This document shows, one piece after another, positions 15,820 to 30,779 of a stretch of DNA of 31,759 bases. The stretch spans positions 1-31,759 of the forward strand of contig VBFM01000094.1 in assembly GCA_005882595.1 (NCBI GenBank), read 5' to 3'. Origin of the DNA: Chloroflexota bacterium (GTDB taxonomy: Bacteria > Chloroflexota > Ktedonobacteria > Ktedonobacterales > Ktedonobacteraceae). Position 1 is the first letter of the stretch; each line of letters begins with the position of its first letter. The notes under the pieces are model-generated. The model did not search any database, was not told the DNA's origin, and was given only the letters and a program-made list of their open reading frames with translations. Position numbers and translations under genes: made by a program.

Positions 15820-17172
15820 ATGATGTACCTGAGCCAACTACTCGGCACCCCTGTCGAGGACCCGCAGGGAGTGCGAGTAGGTAAAATCATCGATATCGTC
15901 ACCCCGGTAGGGACGCGATCTAGCACGCCCACTACCTCATCCACTCCTGCAATTTCTTCACTCTCTACTCCTTCATCCATCCCCACGTTAGTAGTTGAAG
16001 GCCAGGCCGGTCAATCGTGGTATGTGCCTATAGAGGATGTGGAATGGAATGGCAACATCTTACGTCTGCACGTACCGGTCGATCAACTTCCAACGCGACC
16101 AACCGAACCGCATGAAGTGAGCCTGGCGCAGGAAGTGCTTGATAAACAGGTCATCGATGTTGAGCATAAAAAGGCCGTGCGTGTGAACGATGTCTGCTTG
16201 AGCGACGACTGGCGTATTTTGGGTATTGATAACAGCACGCTAGGGTTAGTGCGCCGTCTCGCACCATCCTGGTTACTCGGCGCGAGGAGCAAGCGTGCCT
16301 CCACCACGCTCATTCCCTGGGAACATATTGAACTGATTAGCGCGCAACCGGTTGAGGAAGAGGCTCGCGCCGACACGGGCGCGATAAACCAGGCCTCTAC
16401 ATCGTCAACCTCGCGCGTTGGACGCCCACAGAGTGGTCAGCTAGCCGAGCTGCATCCGGCAGATATCGCTGATATCGTGCATCAACTCACCCCTGGACAA
16501 GGGGCGCGCCTGCTGGAGGGACTGGACGACGAAACCGCCGCCGACACCCTGGAAGAAATCGACACGGAGCGCCAGAGCCATATCCTTGAAAATATTGACC
16601 CGGAACGCGCCGCCGATATCCTGGAAGAGATGGAACCCGACGAAGCCGCCGACTTACTCGCTCGCTTGCCGGAGGAACGTGCGCAGCAACTCCTGCGCTT
16701 GATGAATCCAGAAGAGTCTGAGGATGTGCAGGAATTGCTCGAATACGAAGAAGATACAGCAGGTGGCCTCATGACCACGGACTTCGTGGTGATCGATGCT
16801 ACAAAGAGCGCAGGAGATGCATTAGAAGCAGCGCGCTTCAATATTCGCGAGAAGGATGTACGTGTCGCCTATGTGTACTGCATCGCGGATGAGGAAAAAG
16901 AAGATTATACACTGCTGGGCGTCGTTTCCCTGTGGGATTTACTGATAGCCGACCCGGCCCAGCCCTTGCAAGAACTCATGGAGACCGATCTTATCACCGT
17001 ACAGCCCGATACTGACCCACGCACCGTTGCCGAAATCATGGCGAAATACAATCTCCTCGCCGTCCCCGTCGTGAACGAGGAGCGCGTTATCGAAGGCGTC
17101 GTGATGGTGGATGATGCTCTGGATGTGCTGCTACCTGACGAGAGGCGCCGGAAGCCTACCAGGATGTATTAG
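15820..17172 (+). CDS. MgtE-like cytoplasmic protein (PRC-barrel + MgtE N-terminal + CBS pair), no membrane domain
   Basis: PRC-like YLSQLLGTPVEDPQGVRVGKI, LHPADIADI, YEEDTAGGLMTT, KYNLLAVPVV...DDALDVL; no hydrophobic C-terminal region. Confidence 0.85.
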   Translation: MMYLSQLLGTPVEDPQGVRVGKIIDIVTPVGTRSSTPTTSSTPAISSLSTPSSIPTLVVEGQAGQSWYVPIEDVEWNGNILRLHVPVDQLPTRPTEPHEVSLAQEVLDKQVIDVEHKKAVRVNDVCLSDDWRILGIDNSTLGLVRRLAPSWLLGARSKRASTTLIPWEHIELISAQPVEEEARADTGAINQASTSSTSRVGRPQSGQLAELHPADIADIVHQLTPGQGARLLEGLDDETAADTLEEIDTERQSHILENIDPERAADILEEMEPDEAADLLARLPEERAQQLLRLMNPEESEDVQELLEYEEDTAGGLMTTDFVVIDATKSAGDALEAARFNIREKDVRVAYVYCIADEEKEDYTLLGVVSLWDLLIADPAQPLQELMETDLITVQPDTDPRTVAEIMAKYNLLAVPVVNEERVIEGVVMVDDALDVLLPDERRRKPTRMY

Positions 17173-17265
17173 TATTGCTCTCCCCTCCATTTTTTCTGCC
17201 TCTTTCGATTTCTTACTTTCCGCTTTTCTCTGGAATGGATGTATCTATTCATTAAGAGGAAAGGC

Positions 17266-17332
17266 AGCAGTGTAGCAGCATGAAACGCAACGCTACTCCT
17301 CGACAACAGCATGAATGCTATGCTACACTGCT
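17266..17332. promoter_or_regulatory. 12-bp inverted repeat whose arms are extended -10 motifs, upstream of the Rpn gene
   Basis: agcagtgtagca (17266-17277) / tgctacactgct (17321-17332); the right arm reads TGcTACACT, 25 nt before ATG 17355. Confidence 0.5.
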
Positions 17333-17354
17333 TAGTAGAAACGTAGGAATTTGT

Positions 17355-18269
17355 ATGCCAGAAGAGTGGGATACCGGTCTCAAACTATTGATCGGTGAGA
17401 AACCACAGGATTTTATTAGCTGGCTTGTCCCTGGGGCGAAGTACAGAAAGGTTGTATCCCCACATTTGCCAGGGAGAAAGATTGACGCTGATAGCCTGTT
17501 CGAGATTATCTTGAATGGGAAAGCTATGTTGTTTCACATTGAATTTCAGAGCTACCGGGATCTAAGCATCGTGAAACGGCTCTGGGAGTACAATGTGCGG
17601 GCAACACTCAAGTACAAACTACCGGTTTTGTCGTTCGTATTCTATCTCAAAAGGGAGAAGAAGCCTGCCGAATCTCCCTATATCTGGGAACTCCCAAATG
17701 GAGAGGTTATTCATCGTTTTCAATTTGCTGTCGTCAAATTGTGGGAAGAACGTGCTGAGGTGCTGAAGCAAACTGGGCTGGTGGGCCTGCTTCCACTTAT
17801 ACCATTGACACAAGATGGAAGCCGATTAGAAGTAGTTGATGAAGTCATTACACGCCTGGAGGCAAATGGCGATGAGTCTACTTCAGAGTTATTAGCATTG
17901 ACATATTTACTATCAACATTGGTGTTTAAGGCAAAAAACGAGCGTGAATGGCTCGATAGGAGGTTTGCTATGCTAGATGACCTCATCCGGAGTTCATGGG
18001 GCTATAAAAAGATAAAGCGTGAAGGGTTAGAAGAAGGGCGACAAGAAGGGTTGCAACAAGGGTTGCAAAAAGCGTTGGAAGACCTTCGCTTGACTCTGTT
18101 AGAGGTTGTTCGAGGCCGCTTTCCTGCCCTTGAACCGGTAGCAAAGAAGACAGCAAAAGCTATCAACGAGCCTGCAATCTTGCGCCATATGATTGTCCAA
18201 CTGAGTATGGCCGAGTCTGAAGAAATGGCGAAGCAAGCGCTGCTTTTGCAGGAGAAGAGCAAGAACTAA
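17355..18269 (+). CDS. Rpn/YhgA-like PD-(D/E)xK nuclease (recombination-promoting nuclease / putative transposase family)
   Basis: IDADSLF...LFHIEFQS nuclease motif, RLWEYNV, C-terminal EGLEEGRQEGLQQG repeats; visibly more AT-rich than neighbours. Confidence 0.8.
   Translation: MPEEWDTGLKLLIGEKPQDFISWLVPGAKYRKVVSPHLPGRKIDADSLFEIILNGKAMLFHIEFQSYRDLSIVKRLWEYNVRATLKYKLPVLSFVFYLKREKKPAESPYIWELPNGEVIHRFQFAVVKLWEERAEVLKQTGLVGLLPLIPLTQDGSRLEVVDEVITRLEANGDESTSELLALTYLLSTLVFKAKNEREWLDRRFAMLDDLIRSSWGYKKIKREGLEEGRQEGLQQGLQKALEDLRLTLLEVVRGRFPALEPVAKKTAKAINEPAILRHMIVQLSMAESEEMAKQALLLQEKSKN
17970..18269 (+). CDS. Putative internally initiated 99-aa C-terminal product (RpnS-like antitoxin)
   Basis: AGGAGGT at 17958-17964, 5 nt before an in-frame ATG at 17970. 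Confidence 0.55.
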   Translation: MLDDLIRSSWGYKKIKREGLEEGRQEGLQQGLQKALEDLRLTLLEVVRGRFPALEPVAKKTAKAINEPAILRHMIVQLSMAESEEMAKQALLLQEKSKN

Positions 18270-18278
18270 CTGTTGTGC

Positions 18279-18313
18279 AAATATGTAGAGGTTCTCACGA
18301 GCCCTACATATTT
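18279..18313. repeat. Hairpin between convergent genes (degenerate REP or bidirectional terminator)
   Basis: aaatatgtag / ctacatattt perfect 10-bp arms with GTAG/CTAC. Confidence 0.6.
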
Positions 18314-19038
18314 TTATATGTGCGCACCGCATCCAGCGCCTCTAGCACTTGCAGGATGTCCTGGCAGACATCAACCATTACCTGCGGTAGCCATTCTTCG
18401 GGGCGCGGGTTATCGGCTACCACCTCGGTTTCCTCTTCTTCCTCATCTGAGCTGGGGCGGTGACGCTGCACGAAACGGCTTGAGCGTGAATGCGGCTCGT
18501 CGTGCAGGCCGCGCATCCCATTAGGATGCCAAATCGGGATTTCTACCCGTTGTTGCAGGGTAAGCGATTCTGGCTGCAAGCGGTTCTCAAGCAGTACCAT
18601 GTTGACTCCTGGGCGTGTCTCGAAGGTGCGACTGCTGAGTTCACTGGCACGCAACTTGAGCATCTGCACCAGCGAAAGCAGCACTGCTTCCGAAATGGTT
18701 GCTCCTGAACCATTCAGAGGCGAGGTGTACGAGAGATCGAGCACCAATGGCGGGATATCGCTCGTGTGCAGGTGCGGGCAATGCTCCTCCGGTTCATGAA
18801 AAAAATCGCAAATGCCAATAGGCCCCTCTAGCGAGAGGGCAGTATCCAGCGTATTCCAGGTAAAGGAGAGCGTACAAGAGCTGCGGGTTTCCGATTCATC
18901 ACAACTGCCGGTATGACAGACACAGGCAAATTCACGTTCGAGCGTGCGCCCATTGGTCCAGTATTCAGGATGTGTTACAAGCCCCGGCGGAACCGCCGCC
19001 TTGAGGAAATAGGCAGTCACATCTTCGTATGTTAACAT
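18304..19038 (-). CDS. Hypothetical protein with Cys/His clusters
   Basis: 244-aa ORF with ATG and GGAG RBS; CVCHTGSC and CDFFH...HCPHLH clusters; no family recognised. Confidence 0.7.
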   Translation of the reverse strand: MLTYEDVTAYFLKAAVPPGLVTHPEYWTNGRTLEREFACVCHTGSCDESETRSSCTLSFTWNTLDTALSLEGPIGICDFFHEPEEHCPHLHTSDIPPLVLDLSYTSPLNGSGATISEAVLLSLVQMLKLRASELSSRTFETRPGVNMVLLENRLQPESLTLQQRVEIPIWHPNGMRGLHDEPHSRSSRFVQRHRPSSDEEEEETEVVADNPRPEEWLPQVMVDVCQDILQVLEALDAVRTYKNM

Positions 19039-29393: not shown

Positions 29394-30779
29394 TTATCGG
29401 ACAAATTGTTTCAATACTTCGTCAACCCCAGGATGCAGACGGTTCAGCCGTAAATCTTCGGAACCGCTTGGATCGGTTTGCAGGAGCAGAATCCCCTGTT
29501 GAACGCAGGTATTGAGCAGCTCCCGCGCTGATTCGCGTGTCAGGCGCCCCCGAAAACGATTTTTCGGGTTGACGGGATCACCAATAAAATTGGATACGCC
29601 AATAATCGTGCGCCAGGACCAGTTGCGATCAATGTAGTCGAGGAATTGTAAAAATTGGGGGTCTAGCACATCCATGGGATAAGCTGAAGACGCGTTATAG
29701 GGCGAAGGTGACATGCCCTGACCTCCTGCGGAGATGGCAGGCATGCTGCCTGTATTGCCGGGCATGGACATCTGCCCATAGCCGGTATCAGCCATTTGCC
29801 CGGTGCCACCGAAGGCAGGATTTCCCCCCGGAATGAGCGGCACAAACTGGTTCGCGCTGCTAATAAGGTCTCGGCTGACGGTTCCCGGTATACCAACAAC
29901 AATCACAGTTTTGTTTAGACGTAACTTAAGACGAGCGCTAATGCGGGTGAAATCCTTATCGCCGGTCATCAAAACGAATGTAGAGATAGTAGGACGATCA
30001 AAGACAGTTTCAATTATATCCATCAGCATATTGAGGTCAACGGTACTTTGCACCACCGTACTCTGTACAATGGTATTGGACCCACTGGCATTGATGGCAG
30101 GCATATGACCAGTATTGCCTGTATGCACTACAGGCGTACCATTTGGATAACCCAGGGGACCGGTGCTACTACCCTGGCCCAATGAGCCTGTGGGAGTAGT
30201 TTGACCATAAGGGGTTGGATAGGTAGGATGGCTCAGGAATTGGCGGGATGGCTCTCGCTGTGGATAATCCTCCGACAGGTAGCCTTCGTCGGCCAATGAC
30301 TCGTGCTCTTCCAGCATATCCTCGTCGGCCTCGGATGGCCTGGACTCCGAAGAGTCCTGGTAGCCGGGCCATTCATTCCCTACCCCCTGCGGGGTGATCG
30401 CAGGTAATGGACCAGAATTGCCAAGGGGACCGCTAGGCCATTGACGCTGAAAGGCGCCCGTTCCCTGCTCTGTTACCAGCCCAGGTGAACCAAGGGAACC
30501 TGTTGGCGAATTAGCCGATGGGTAATGCATCGTTCCCATTCTAATACGGTCTCGCTGTTTGGCCGGACAATCTACCCGGTCAATCATCGCCGCCGTCAGG
30601 CTTCCTTTGAATGGCTCTGGTTGTCGAGACCAATCCGCATAAGCGCGGGCAACCATCACTGTCCCATATCGACGCGCTACCGCGATCAATTCCTGGGGGT
30701 CAGGTTCCCGTCGCTGGATATTCAGCATACTATATCGGATGTTCTCAAAATCGATGAATAAAGCTATTTCTTCAGGCAC
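29394..30779 (-). CDS. NYN (LabA/DUF88) domain protein with a large low-complexity insertion
   Basis: ALFIDFEN, RAYADW, TVDLNMLMD, MTGDKDF, VIVVG...SRDLISSANQF motifs; GTG start. Confidence 0.85.
   Translation of the reverse strand: MPEEIALFIDFENIRYSMLNIQRREPDPQELIAVARRYGTVMVARAYADWSRQPEPFKGSLTAAMIDRVDCPAKQRDRIRMGTMHYPSANSPTGSLGSPGLVTEQGTGAFQRQWPSGPLGNSGPLPAITPQGVGNEWPGYQDSSESRPSEADEDMLEEHESLADEGYLSEDYPQREPSRQFLSHPTYPTPYGQTTPTGSLGQGSSTGPLGYPNGTPVVHTGNTGHMPAINASGSNTIVQSTVVQSTVDLNMLMDIIETVFDRPTISTFVLMTGDKDFTRISARLKLRLNKTVIVVGIPGTVSRDLISSANQFVPLIPGGNPAFGGTGQMADTGYGQMSMPGNTGSMPAISAGGQGMSPSPYNASSAYPMDVLDPQFLQFLDYIDRNWSWRTIIGVSNFIGDPVNPKNRFRGRLTRESARELLNTCVQQGILLLQTDPSGSEDLRLNRLHPGVDEVLKQFVR

What the first reader, a model, noticed from the sequence alone, without database searches (positions are those of the whole stretch)
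17958..18269. Perfect internal Shine-Dalgarno and ATG in the Rpn gene: candidate gene-within-gene toxin/antitoxin defence module
Seen in sequence: AGGAGGT (17958-17964) lies 5 nt before an in-frame ATG (17970). It is a stronger RBS than that of the full-length start, and gives a 99-aa product covering the EGLEEG-repeat C-terminus without the nuclease domain. Established knowledge: enterobacterial Rpn/YhgA-like proteins are translated as a toxic long form (RpnL) and an internally initiated short C-terminal antitoxin (RpnS), and act in phage defence. Inference: this AT-rich stand-alone gene in a distant phylum uses the same design.
Basis: partly seen in the sequence, partly recalled or inferred. 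Interest (0 to 1): 0.72.

Follow-up and report, generated by a model that had tools for sequence, protein, structure and literature searches.

The report
Nuclease gene with nested antitoxin start
A DNA-cutting "toxin" gene of a soil Ktedonobacteraceae bacterium carries a second, strongly conserved ribosome start site inside it that should make a small tail-only protein. This is the gene-within-gene toxin/antitoxin design already shown for Rpn proteins in E. coli, so it is a well-supported new example and not a new kind of system.

Summary
AGGAGGT lies at 17958-17964, and the in-frame ATG at 17970 opens a 99-aa (11.3 kDa) product inside a 304-aa Rpn-like nuclease gene whose likely true start is ATG 17355.

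Comparative evidence shows the site is selected at the nucleotide level.
- In 51 distinct Ktedonobacteraceae homologs (about 35-50% protein identity), the two Arg codons are AGG in 40/43 and 39/45 cases. AGG makes up 9.9% of Arg codons elsewhere in the same genes.
- All 51 have ATG, GTG or TTG at the aligned codon or the next one.
- Twenty free-standing copies of the C-terminal domain start at the same position.
- A natural allele, seen in three assemblies and one further soil DNA run, has lost 17372-17958 (the nuclease domain). It keeps GGAGG, the ATG and the intact 99-aa frame.

The folds match E. coli Rpn proteins (N-terminal part) and DUF4351 (C-terminal part). Close relatives differ by 4-residue repeat units. 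A complex model pairs the short form in register with the tail of the long form (0.63, best control 0.00).

Production of the short protein, toxicity, neutralisation and phage defence are all untested. The gene is a single-gene insertion among housekeeping genes. This scan has reported the same design in many other genomes. Verdict: new member of a known kind, with moderate interest.

The parts
17173..18303 (.). About 1.13-kb single-gene insertion (low GC) between the convergent MgtE-like gene (15820-17172) and a conserved 244-aa gene (18304-19038, minus strand)
   Evidence: In 10 of 13 other genera sampled, the two flanking genes are directly adjacent with no rpn-like gene between them. GC is 45-46% here against about 54% in the flanks and the genome. 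No terminal repeats were found.
17266..17332 (+). 5' leader hairpin (12-bp perfect outer stem) just upstream of the long-form start; it contains the alternative ATG at 17280
   Evidence: Inverted repeat I2. Folds at -23.5 kcal/mol and is unique in the genome, so it is not a copy of the mobile hairpin repeat noted elsewhere in this window. Function unknown.
17355..18269 (+). Long form (RpnL-like): 304 aa, 35.1 kDa, with an N-terminal PD-(D/E)xK nuclease domain and a C-terminal helical domain. The open frame extends up to ATG 17280, but homologs start at this Met.
   Evidence: Homologs are about 290-320 aa and align from Met26. Residues 1-27 have pLDDT below 50. Weak SD, -5.8 kcal/mol. Fold hits to RpnD/E/A/C/B.
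17490..17549 (+). Nuclease active-site motif: Asp71 ... His86-x-Glu88-x-Gln90 (HIEFQ)
   Evidence: D71, H86, E88 and Q90 are invariant in 45 homologs. hhalign aligns them with SDVLW...IEHQ of E. coli RpnA.
17372..17958 (+). Segment missing (587 nt, 3-nt GGA microhomology) in a natural allele that keeps only the short gene
   Evidence: Three metagenome contigs from the same syntenic locus, 97-99.6% identical, share one junction. The joint 17368->17959 is also seen in a DNA run that holds the full allele too.
17958..17963 (+). Internal Shine-Dalgarno AGGAGG (codons Arg227-Arg228)
   Evidence: AGG in 40/43 and 39/45 homologs against 9.9% background. Top two codon-bias columns, 57 and 55 bits against a median of 5.4. 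Duplex -13.7 kcal/mol.
17970..18269 (+). Short form (RpnS-like): 99 aa, 11.3 kDa, from internal ATG (Met231) to the shared stop
   Evidence: Start codon at the aligned position or +1 in 51/51 homologs. Stand-alone genes begin at this position. Model pLDDT 86.7, with one long helix plus three short helices. DUF4351-like fold.
18021..18068 (+). Four tandem 12-nt units encoding EGLE-EGRQ-EGLQ-QGLQ (a GxxxG-type repeat), starting at residue 18 of the short form
   Evidence: Direct repeat family D1. Homologs 65-99% identical over this region differ by 4-aa units. A soil DNA contig carries a +12-nt insertion behind 18045. The Gly positions form the in-register contacts in the complex model.
18279..18319 (+). 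Terminator-like hairpin followed by a T run, between the convergent genes
   Evidence: Inverted repeat I7. Fold -22.4 kcal/mol, z -4.2. The pattern scan did not list it.

Best explanation
This is an Rpn-type gene-within-gene.

One gene (17355-18269) encodes a 304-aa PD-(D/E)xK nuclease, the long form. It is translated from a weak ribosome-binding site.

From a much stronger internal Shine-Dalgarno (AGGAGG, 17958) and ATG (17970), the same gene also encodes a 99-aa protein identical to the long form's C-terminal helical domain.

By analogy with E. coli RpnL/RpnS, the short form pairs in register with the tail of the long form, through the helix that carries the (E/Q)Gxx repeats. This keeps the nuclease inactive. 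The number of repeats sets which short form fits which long form.

Shown here:
- the site exists;
- it is under nucleotide-level selection across the family;
- stand-alone and deletion derivatives use it as their only start;
- both domains have Rpn and DUF4351 folds;
- the repeats vary by 4-residue units;
- the gene is present in soil RNA libraries.

Inferred:
- the short protein is made in vivo;
- the long form is toxic;
- the short form neutralises it;
- the module defends against phage.
For: (1) Nucleotide-level constraint.
- AGG is 40/43 and 39/45 at Arg227/Arg228, against 9.9% of 990 other Arg codons in the same 51 genes.
- The equally conserved Arg100 uses all six Arg codons, and the neighbouring Leu225 uses all six Leu codons.
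- These two columns are the extreme outliers in a codon-bias scan: 57 and 55 bits, next highest 31.8, median 5.4.

(2) Start codon.
- The aligned codon is ATG in 38, GTG in 4 and TTG in 1. At +1 it is ATG in 7 and TTG in 1. That is 51/51.
- It is the only alignment column that combines an SD (27/31) with a start codon (28/31).

(3) Strength of the sites.
- Median SD duplex energy is -13.15 kcal/mol for the internal start and -10.2 for the full-length start. Background in-frame positions average -4.5.
- The 16S tail carries CCUCCU.
- The 15-mer AGGAGGTTY-NNN-DTG occurs five times in the genome: here, at a stand-alone copy of the C-terminal domain, and at three ordinary gene starts.

(4) Natural derivatives.
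- A 98-aa stand-alone gene on contig C6 has the same AAGGAGGTTTnnnATG and a stop 10 codons upstream.
- In 20/20 sampled stand-alone copies from 13 genomes, a start codon lies within 3 residues of this position, often behind remnants of the W-L-x-R-R-F coding sequence.
- About a third of the 150 listed C-terminal-domain matches lie in open frames shorter than 200 aa (counted by eye).
- A deletion allele removes 17372-17958 and leaves GGGAGGTTTGCTATG plus the intact 99-aa frame. It is found in three assemblies and in one further DNA run that also holds the full allele.
- A 24%-identical paralog on C448 has GGAGG-5 nt-ATG encoded by other residues (Val-Glu-Asp) 92 aa from its end.

(5) Family.
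- The top seven Swiss-Prot fold hits are RpnD/E/A/D/C/B and pSLT051.
- TIGR01784 matches 39/45 relatives, best E 1.8e-12. PF04754 matches 10/45.
- The D...ExQ motif is invariant and aligns with that of RpnA.
- The C-terminal model matches DUF4351 proteins and the C-termini of annotated Rpn proteins, with TM up to 0.83.

(6) Published Rpn hallmarks are met (PMC10400941).
- The 4-aa repeats start 18 residues after the internal Met.
- Their number varies among near-identical strains and among paralogs.
- E. coli rpnA has AAGGAG-6 nt-ATG, the same spacing as here.

(7) Complex model of long plus short form.
- ipSAE 0.63 against a best control of 0.00. That mark was reached by 58 of 80 solved complexes and 2 of 110 mismatched pairs.
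- The runs agree on at least 93% of contacts, and partner pLDDT is at least 85.
- Contacts are 245:245, 249:249, 253:253 and 257:257, which after 245 are the repeat glycines.
- The pass may partly reflect likeness to solved coiled-coil dimers, and my own alignment was used.

(8) RNA. Soil metatranscriptome contigs from two studies cover 17451-18279, including one 211-nt contig across the internal start. None covers the flanking genes.
Against: - There is no direct evidence that the short protein is made.
- RNA contigs show neither transcript ends nor strand, and they could be DNA carry-over.
- No internal promoter stands out: 2 promoter-like sites against 1.6 expected.
- This protein is below the curated cut-offs of PF04754 (13.9 against 21 bits) and TIGR01784 (22.9 against 52.1).
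- PF14261 (DUF4351) and PDB 7TH0 are not hit by sequence, and Foldseek on the PDB gave nothing significant.
- The neighbours are housekeeping genes, not a defence island.
- Homologs are related to each other, so the binomial P values overstate independence. The adjacent control columns show that synonymous sites are saturated.
- The deletion allele is a single event in one lineage, and its ORF differs from this one by only 5 codons (3 synonymous, 2 not). This has no power to show selection.
Confidence: 0.8

Rival explanations
1. The short protein is made from the internal start, but it is not an antitoxin. It could be an obligate subunit, an assembly or specificity factor, or a regulator of the long form, as Cas11d made from inside cas10d is needed for Cascade function.
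For: The same evidence for an internal start applies. The complex model shows binding but not inhibition. The gene sits among housekeeping genes. The source paper itself cites Cas10d/Cas11d as a complementary case.
Against: In every Rpn tested, the short form blocked growth inhibition, SOS induction or DNA cleavage by its long form. Orphan short genes and a nuclease-domain deletion that keeps the short gene fit an antidote better than a subunit that is useless alone.
Confidence: 0.12
2. The gene is a transposase-like mobility enzyme, as such genes were long annotated. The internal start would then make a truncated inhibitor of mobility, like the Inh protein of Tn5.
For: The gene is a single-gene insertion with low GC. 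The family has many copies per genome: about 750 matches in 101 genomes, and up to 23 or 24 in one. JGI names some members 'predicted transposase YdaD'.
Against: There are no terminal inverted repeats or target duplications at the insertion. Paralogs within one genome are at most 87% identical at the DNA level, so there is no sign of recent copy bursts. The published analysis found no evidence of autonomous transposition by rpn genes.
Confidence: 0.05
3. The AGGAGG and the Met are kept for another reason, and no separate protein is made. Examples would be a translational pause at the domain boundary caused by an SD-like sequence or tandem rare AGG codons, or an RNA or DNA signal.
For: The site lies at a domain boundary between helices. 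AGG is a rare Arg codon in these genes, at 9.9%.
Against: A pause signal would not require a start codon 6 nt downstream, nor its replacement specifically by GTG or TTG, nor its shift by one codon. Stand-alone genes and the deletion allele have only this SD and start to be translated from. A distant paralog and E. coli rpnA build the SD from other amino acids.
Confidence: 0.03

Closest known systems
E. coli RpnA-E and plasmid RpnP2 (RpnL/RpnS intragenic toxin-antitoxin; Zhong et al. 2023, PMC10400941; RpnA-S structure PDB 7TH0)
   Same: Both have a PD-(D/E)xK nuclease with a D...ExQ motif and an in-frame internal SD plus ATG, with 6 nt between the SD core and the ATG. The short product equals the C-terminal helical domain. 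The first helix carries 4-residue repeats that start 8-20 residues after the internal Met, and their number varies between strains. Both are single-gene mobile units without IS ends. Whole-protein fold hits go to RpnD/E/A/C/B.
   Different: Identity is only about 15% in the fold alignments, and the curated family cut-offs are not reached. The SD is built from Arg-Arg (AGG AGG) rather than Lys-Glu (AAG GAG). The short form is 99 aa (long helix plus three helices) against 49 aa for RpnA-S. No internal promoter is evident. The gene is not in a defence island. No functional data exist.
Stand-alone RpnSs / DUF4351 (PF14261) proteins such as E. coli YpaA
   Same: Free-standing copies of the C-terminal domain occur in the same genome and across the family, some directly downstream of a full-length gene. 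The best fold matches of the C-terminal model are DUF4351 proteins.
   Different: None of 45 family C-terminal domains matches PF14261 by sequence. The likeness is by fold and by language-model features only.
Clostridioides difficile Rpn (short form shown when expressed in E. coli; same paper)
   Same: It is a non-proteobacterial Rpn with a predicted RBS and internal start that were confirmed by mutation.
   Different: It comes from a different phylum. The present case rests on comparative evidence only.
Tn5 transposase/Inh and Cas10d/Cas11d (other proteins made from internal in-frame starts)
   Same: In each, a shorter C-terminal product from an internal start binds or modulates the full-length protein's complex.
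   Different: The folds and functions are unrelated.

Membership tests
Rpn (RpnL/RpnS; COG5464, TIGR01784, PF04754 YhgA-like) | N-terminal YhgA-like PD-(D/E)xK domain recognised by the curated sequence models | tested here: inconclusive
   This protein scores PF04754 E 0.041, 13.9 bits (cut-off 21), and TIGR01784 E 6.3e-5, 22.9 bits (cut-off 52.1). Among 45 relatives, 39 hit TIGR01784 at E<=0.01 (best 1.8e-12) and 10 hit PF04754. hhalign against a single RpnA sequence gives E 0.009. A genome-wide PF04754 scan found nothing at E<=0.01.
Rpn (RpnL/RpnS) | Overall fold like known Rpn proteins | tested here: met
   For the AF2 model (pLDDT 84.4), the top seven Swiss-Prot AFDB hits are all Rpn proteins over residues about 20-320, with probability 0.98-1.00 and E 7.5e-5 to 2e-3. 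Global TM is only about 0.26 because of the domain arrangement. The PDB gives only weak hits to other PD-(D/E)xK nucleases.
Rpn (RpnL/RpnS) | Catalytic Asp ... Glu-x-Gln motif intact | tested here: met
   D71, E88 and Q90 (HIEFQ) are invariant in 45 homologs and align to SDVLW...IEHQ of RpnA.
Rpn (RpnL/RpnS) | In-frame internal ribosome-binding site and start codon ahead of the C-terminal domain | tested here: met
   Present at 17958/17970. Conserved at the nucleotide level in 51 homologs. Used by stand-alone and deletion derivatives.
Rpn (RpnL/RpnS) | Four-residue repeats in the first helix of the short form, starting 8-20 residues after its Met, with number varying between close strains | tested here: met
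   The repeats start at residue 18. Relatives 65-99% identical over this region differ by 4-aa units. A soil DNA contig carries a +12-nt variant. Paralogs differ by multiples of 4 aa.
Rpn (RpnL/RpnS) | The short protein is actually translated | not testable with these tools
   Only RNA-library contigs cover the gene. No ribosome profiling or proteomics is available.
Rpn (RpnL/RpnS) | The short form binds the long form and blocks its toxicity and nuclease activity | not testable with these tools
   The only evidence is a structure-prediction pass: 0.63 against a best control of 0.00, a mark reached by 58/80 solved complexes and 2/110 mismatched pairs. This supports binding but does not show binding or inhibition.
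Rpn (RpnL/RpnS) | Antiphage defence, or location in defence islands | tested here: not met
   For location: the neighbours are an MgtE-like gene, a conserved 244-aa protein, MarR, pyrG and panC, and PADLOC gives no hit. The defence function itself was not testable.
DUF4351 (PF14261; stand-alone RpnSs) | C-terminal domain matches the family | tested here: inconclusive
   By sequence, 0 of 45 match PF14261 at E<=0.1. By fold, the top AFDB-cluster hits are DUF4351 proteins and the C-termini of Rpn proteins, with E down to 1.7e-7 and TM 0.6-0.83. Language-model neighbours include DUF4351 clusters at 0.94.

The most novel reading that the evidence does not exclude
In Ktedonobacteraceae the Rpn design may have grown into a many-membered network. 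This would comprise up to about two dozen long genes plus many orphan short genes per genome. Within it, the number and sequence of GxxxG-type repeats would act as an address code that matches each antidote to its nuclease. Strains of one species in the same soil would coexist with and without the toxin half: a precise deletion keeps the antidote and its ribosome site. Toxin loss with antidote retention would then be a recurrent, selected route that creates 'anti-addiction' or cross-protecting orphan antitoxins.
Probability: 0.25. Interest if true: 0.6.

Novelty: new member of a known kind. Interest (0 to 1): 0.4.

Why it matters
- It extends the RpnL/RpnS gene-within-gene design to Chloroflexota (Ktedonobacteraceae). 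The evidence is unusually clean comparative data: codon choice, start-codon substitution, and natural derivatives that use the same start.
- Annotation pipelines miss the nested gene in hundreds of copies. Matches were found in 92 of 101 genomes searched.
- The natural allele that has shed the nuclease half but kept the short gene, together with the frequent orphan short genes, gives a population-level handle on how antidotes outlive their toxins.
- The in-register glycine contacts in the model suggest a simple reason why the repeat number must match between the long and short forms.

Tried and rejected
- The search for related loci with the alignment failed because no stretch was conserved enough. 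With the single protein it found only two loci. The genome search was used instead.
- Profile searches of PDB sequences with the whole family and with the C-terminal domain gave only chance-level hits, and 7TH0 was not found. Foldseek on the PDB gave nothing at E<=0.001 for either model.
- The short database proteins P0124 and P0126 start at the same Met and looked like further stand-alone genes. Their contigs simply begin 55-58 nt upstream, inside a full-length gene, so they are contig-edge artefacts and are not counted. P0125 had no DNA available.
- 'Stops inside' some genome matches turned out to be terminal stops, not broken nuclease domains.
- The promoter scan found no more sites than chance inside the gene. 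A mild rise in codon bias at residues 202-213 was not convincing, so no internal promoter is claimed.
- The leader hairpin at 17266-17332 is not a copy of the mobile hairpin repeat reported elsewhere in this window.
- No repeats mark the ends of the insertion.
- A PF04754 scan of the own genome found nothing at E<=0.01.
- In the metatranscriptome contigs, uncovered parts of the gene and its flanks prove nothing.
Full report
**1. The observation**

The window carries an ORF at 17280..18269 (+), 329 aa.
- AGGAGGT is at 17958-17964, and the in-frame ATG at 17970 (Met231) opens a 99-aa, 11.3-kDa product.
- AGGAGG is read as Arg227-Arg228.
- Homologs are about 290-320 aa and align from Met26 (ATG 17355). 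Residues 1-27 are disordered in the model. The long form is therefore most likely 304 aa, 35.1 kDa.
- The genome's 16S rRNA ends in the canonical CCUCCU tail.
- The predicted SD duplex is -13.7 kcal/mol for the internal start and -5.8 for the start at 17355.

On its own the site is not rare. There are 485 AGGAGG-N4-9-ATG sites in the genome. Of these, 250 sit at ORF starts and 21 lie deep inside long frames. The window holds 6, against 1.66 expected.

**2. Conservation at the nucleotide level**

The protein belongs to a large family in Ktedonobacteraceae (Chloroflexota; source names). Matches were found in 92 of 101 genomes searched, about 750 in all, with up to 23 or 24 per genome.

I mapped the codon aligned with Met231 in 51 distinct homologs at about 35-50% protein identity.
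- Arg227 is AGG in 40 of 43 Arg codons, and Arg228 in 39 of 45 (plus 5 AGA). AGG makes up 9.9% of the other 990 Arg codons in the same genes.
- The equally conserved Arg100 uses all six Arg codons, and the adjacent Leu225 uses all six Leu codons. Synonymous sites are therefore saturated.
- A codon-bias statistic over 298 columns puts 227 and 228 far above all others: 57 and 55 bits, against a next highest of 31.8 and a median of 5.4.
- The aligned codon is ATG in 38, GTG in 4 and TTG in 1. In the remaining 8, an ATG (7) or a TTG (1) lies one codon downstream.
- Median SD duplex energy is -13.15 kcal/mol at the internal start, -10.2 at the full-length starts and -4.5 at background in-frame positions. 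Only 0.8% of background positions reach the internal median.

The homologs are related to each other, so the binomial P values (about 1e-33 to 1e-37) overstate independence. The control columns argue that the effect is real. One of the 51 loci (L017, genome G046) is from an unpublished genome, and leaving it out changes each count by one. G020, also unpublished, enters only the genome tallies.

**3. Natural derivatives that use the same start**

(a) Contig C6 of the same genome has a 98-aa stand-alone gene, 33% identical to the C-terminal domain. It starts at the same Met behind AAGGAGGTTTCGTATG, with a stop 10 codons upstream. A second, more decayed copy lies on C299.

(b) The 15-mer AGGAGGTTY-NNN-DTG occurs five times in the genome: at these two sites and at three ordinary gene starts.

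(c) Across 41 family genomes, about a third of the 150 listed C-terminal-domain matches lie in open frames under 200 aa (counted by eye).
- Twenty of these were fetched from 13 genomes. All have a start codon within 3 residues of the aligned position.
- Many of them still carry the remnant of the W-L-x-R-R-F coding sequence as their ribosome site.
- Some sit directly downstream of a full-length gene, as E. coli ypaA does next to rpnE.

(d) Three metagenome contigs from the same syntenic locus (MgtE-like gene, then this gene, then the 244-aa gene, then MarR) are 97-99.6% identical to the window but lack 17372-17958.
- This is a 587-nt deletion with 3-nt microhomology. It leaves GGGAGGTTTGCTATG and an intact 99-aa frame.
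- A soil DNA run holds both the full allele and this joint. It also holds a +12-nt repeat variant.
- The deletion is one event in one lineage, and its ORF differs by 3 synonymous and 2 non-synonymous codons. It therefore shows that the arrangement exists and persists, not that it is selected.

(e) A 24%-identical paralog on C448 has GGAGG-5 nt-ATG encoded by Val-Glu-Asp, 92 aa from its end. E. coli rpnA has AAGGAG-6 nt-ATG encoded by Lys-Glu.

Two database 'short proteins' that start at the same Met proved to be contig-edge artefacts and are not counted.

**4. What the protein is**

By sequence:
- This protein is below the curated cut-offs of PF04754 and TIGR01784.
- 39 of 45 relatives match TIGR01784 (best E 1.8e-12), and 10 match PF04754.
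- JGI calls several members 'predicted transposase YdaD' or TIGR01784 family.
- D71, H86, E88 and Q90 are invariant. hhalign lays them on SDVLW...IEHQ of E. coli RpnA (E 0.009).

By fold:
- For the AF2 model (pLDDT 84.4), the top seven Swiss-Prot hits are RpnD, RpnE, RpnA, RpnD, RpnC, RpnB and Salmonella pSLT051 over nearly the whole length.
- A separate model of the short form (pLDDT 86.7) has one long helix and three short ones. It best matches DUF4351 proteins of about 90-124 aa and the C-termini of annotated Rpn proteins, with TM up to 0.83.
- PF14261 and PDB 7TH0 are not found by sequence, and Foldseek on the PDB is uninformative.

**5. The repeats**

Positions 18021-18068 hold four 12-nt units encoding EGLE-EGRQ-EGLQ-QGLQ, beginning at residue 18 of the short form.
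- Relatives 65-99% identical over this region differ from this protein by whole 4-residue units.
- Paralogs within one genome differ by multiples of four residues, for example 117 against 97 aa and 125, 113 and 117 aa.
- These are the hallmarks described for RpnS: repeats that start 8-20 residues after the Met, a number that varies between strains, and a mismatch in number that abolishes neutralisation (PMC10400941).

**6. Binding model**

Folding the long form (26-329) with the short form (231-329) gave a score of 0.63, against 0.00 for the best of three controls.
- That mark was reached by 58 of 80 solved complexes and 2 of 110 mismatched pairs.
- The runs agree on at least 93% of contacts, and partner pLDDT is at least 85.
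- The closest contacts are same-residue pairs 245:245, 249:249, 253:253 and 257:257. After Ile245 these are the glycines of the repeat. This suggests a parallel, in-register GxxxG-type helix pairing, which would explain the need for equal repeat numbers.
- The first residues of the short chain also touch the nuclease domain near residues 89-91 and 123-124.

This is a model's confidence with my own alignment. It may owe something to likeness to solved helical dimers. It supports binding but does not show it.

**7. Context and expression**

- The gene is about 46% GC, against 54% in its flanks. Family members are lower in GC than their flanks in 28 of 31 loci.
- In 10 of 13 other genera, the MgtE-like gene and the 244-aa gene are directly adjacent. 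The roughly 1.13-kb segment 17173-18303 is therefore a single-gene insertion, and it has no terminal repeats.
- Paralogs within a genome are at most 87% identical at the DNA level, and the similarity ends close to the gene. This fits the published picture of rpn genes as non-autonomous mobile units, not insertion sequences.
- The neighbours are housekeeping genes, and PADLOC is silent.
- A unique leader hairpin (17266-17332) precedes the long-form start, and a terminator-like hairpin follows the stop.
- Soil metatranscriptome contigs from two studies cover parts of 17451-18279, one of them spanning the internal start, but not the flanking genes. Contigs show neither transcript ends nor strand.
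- No internal promoter is evident.

**8. Verdict**

The internal start is very probably real (about 0.85-0.9), and the gene is a diverged Rpn-type long/short module. The antitoxin role (about 0.65) and the defence role (about 0.5) are inferred from E. coli.

The design was published in 2023, with the statement that it is probably broadly conserved. This scan has already reported it in many other genomes: 137 notes in at least 84 genomes. None of them is on this protein.

It is a new member of a known kind. The points worth keeping are the strength of the codon-level signal, the size of the Ktedonobacteraceae expansion with its many orphan short genes, and the natural toxin-half deletion allele.

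Noticed in passing
window 29712-29727 (-), inside ORF 29394..30779 (-): This is another AGGAGG-N7-ATG lying deep in frame (355 open codons upstream, 106 aa downstream) in a 461-aa ORF. By eye, without a domain search, its N-terminus looks like a NYN/LabA-type domain. It could be a second gene-within-gene candidate, or simply chance.
   Followed up: no
window 17266-17332 (+): A perfect 12-bp stem closes a 67-nt leader hairpin (-23.5 kcal/mol) just upstream of the long-form start. It is unique in the genome and retained in the deletion allele. It may regulate long-form translation.
   Followed up: partly
G000 contig C6 (L002 1474-1770, -) and C299 (L004 about 1471-1800, -): Two orphan short (RpnS-like) genes lie in a genome where only one full-length copy and one distant paralog were found. 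The genome is 74% complete. The C299 copy has a decayed SD (AGAAAGAGA).
   Followed up: partly
G000 contig C448 (L003 1462-2508, -): A distant Rpn-like paralog (24% identity, no EG repeats) has its own internal GGAGG-5 nt-ATG, encoded by Val-Glu-Asp, 92 aa before the stop.
   Followed up: partly
relatives, e.g. G023:C41:25948-26620, G072:C14:284014-284617, G010:C1:9090636-9091786: In each of these, a full-length gene is followed directly by a stand-alone copy of the C-terminal domain, like rpnE-ypaA in E. coli. Genomes such as G072 hold 23-24 family matches.
   Followed up: partly
window 18304-19038 (-): A 244-aa protein with no Pfam family on record is conserved across Ktedonobacterales families (46-78% identity) and usually lies convergent to, and touching, the MgtE-like gene. 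Its function is unknown.
   Followed up: no
sequencing runs X13-X17: Five soil DNA runs from five studies hold 0.47-0.60 of the sampled words of 17173-18330. The deletion allele alone would give about 0.49.
   Followed up: no
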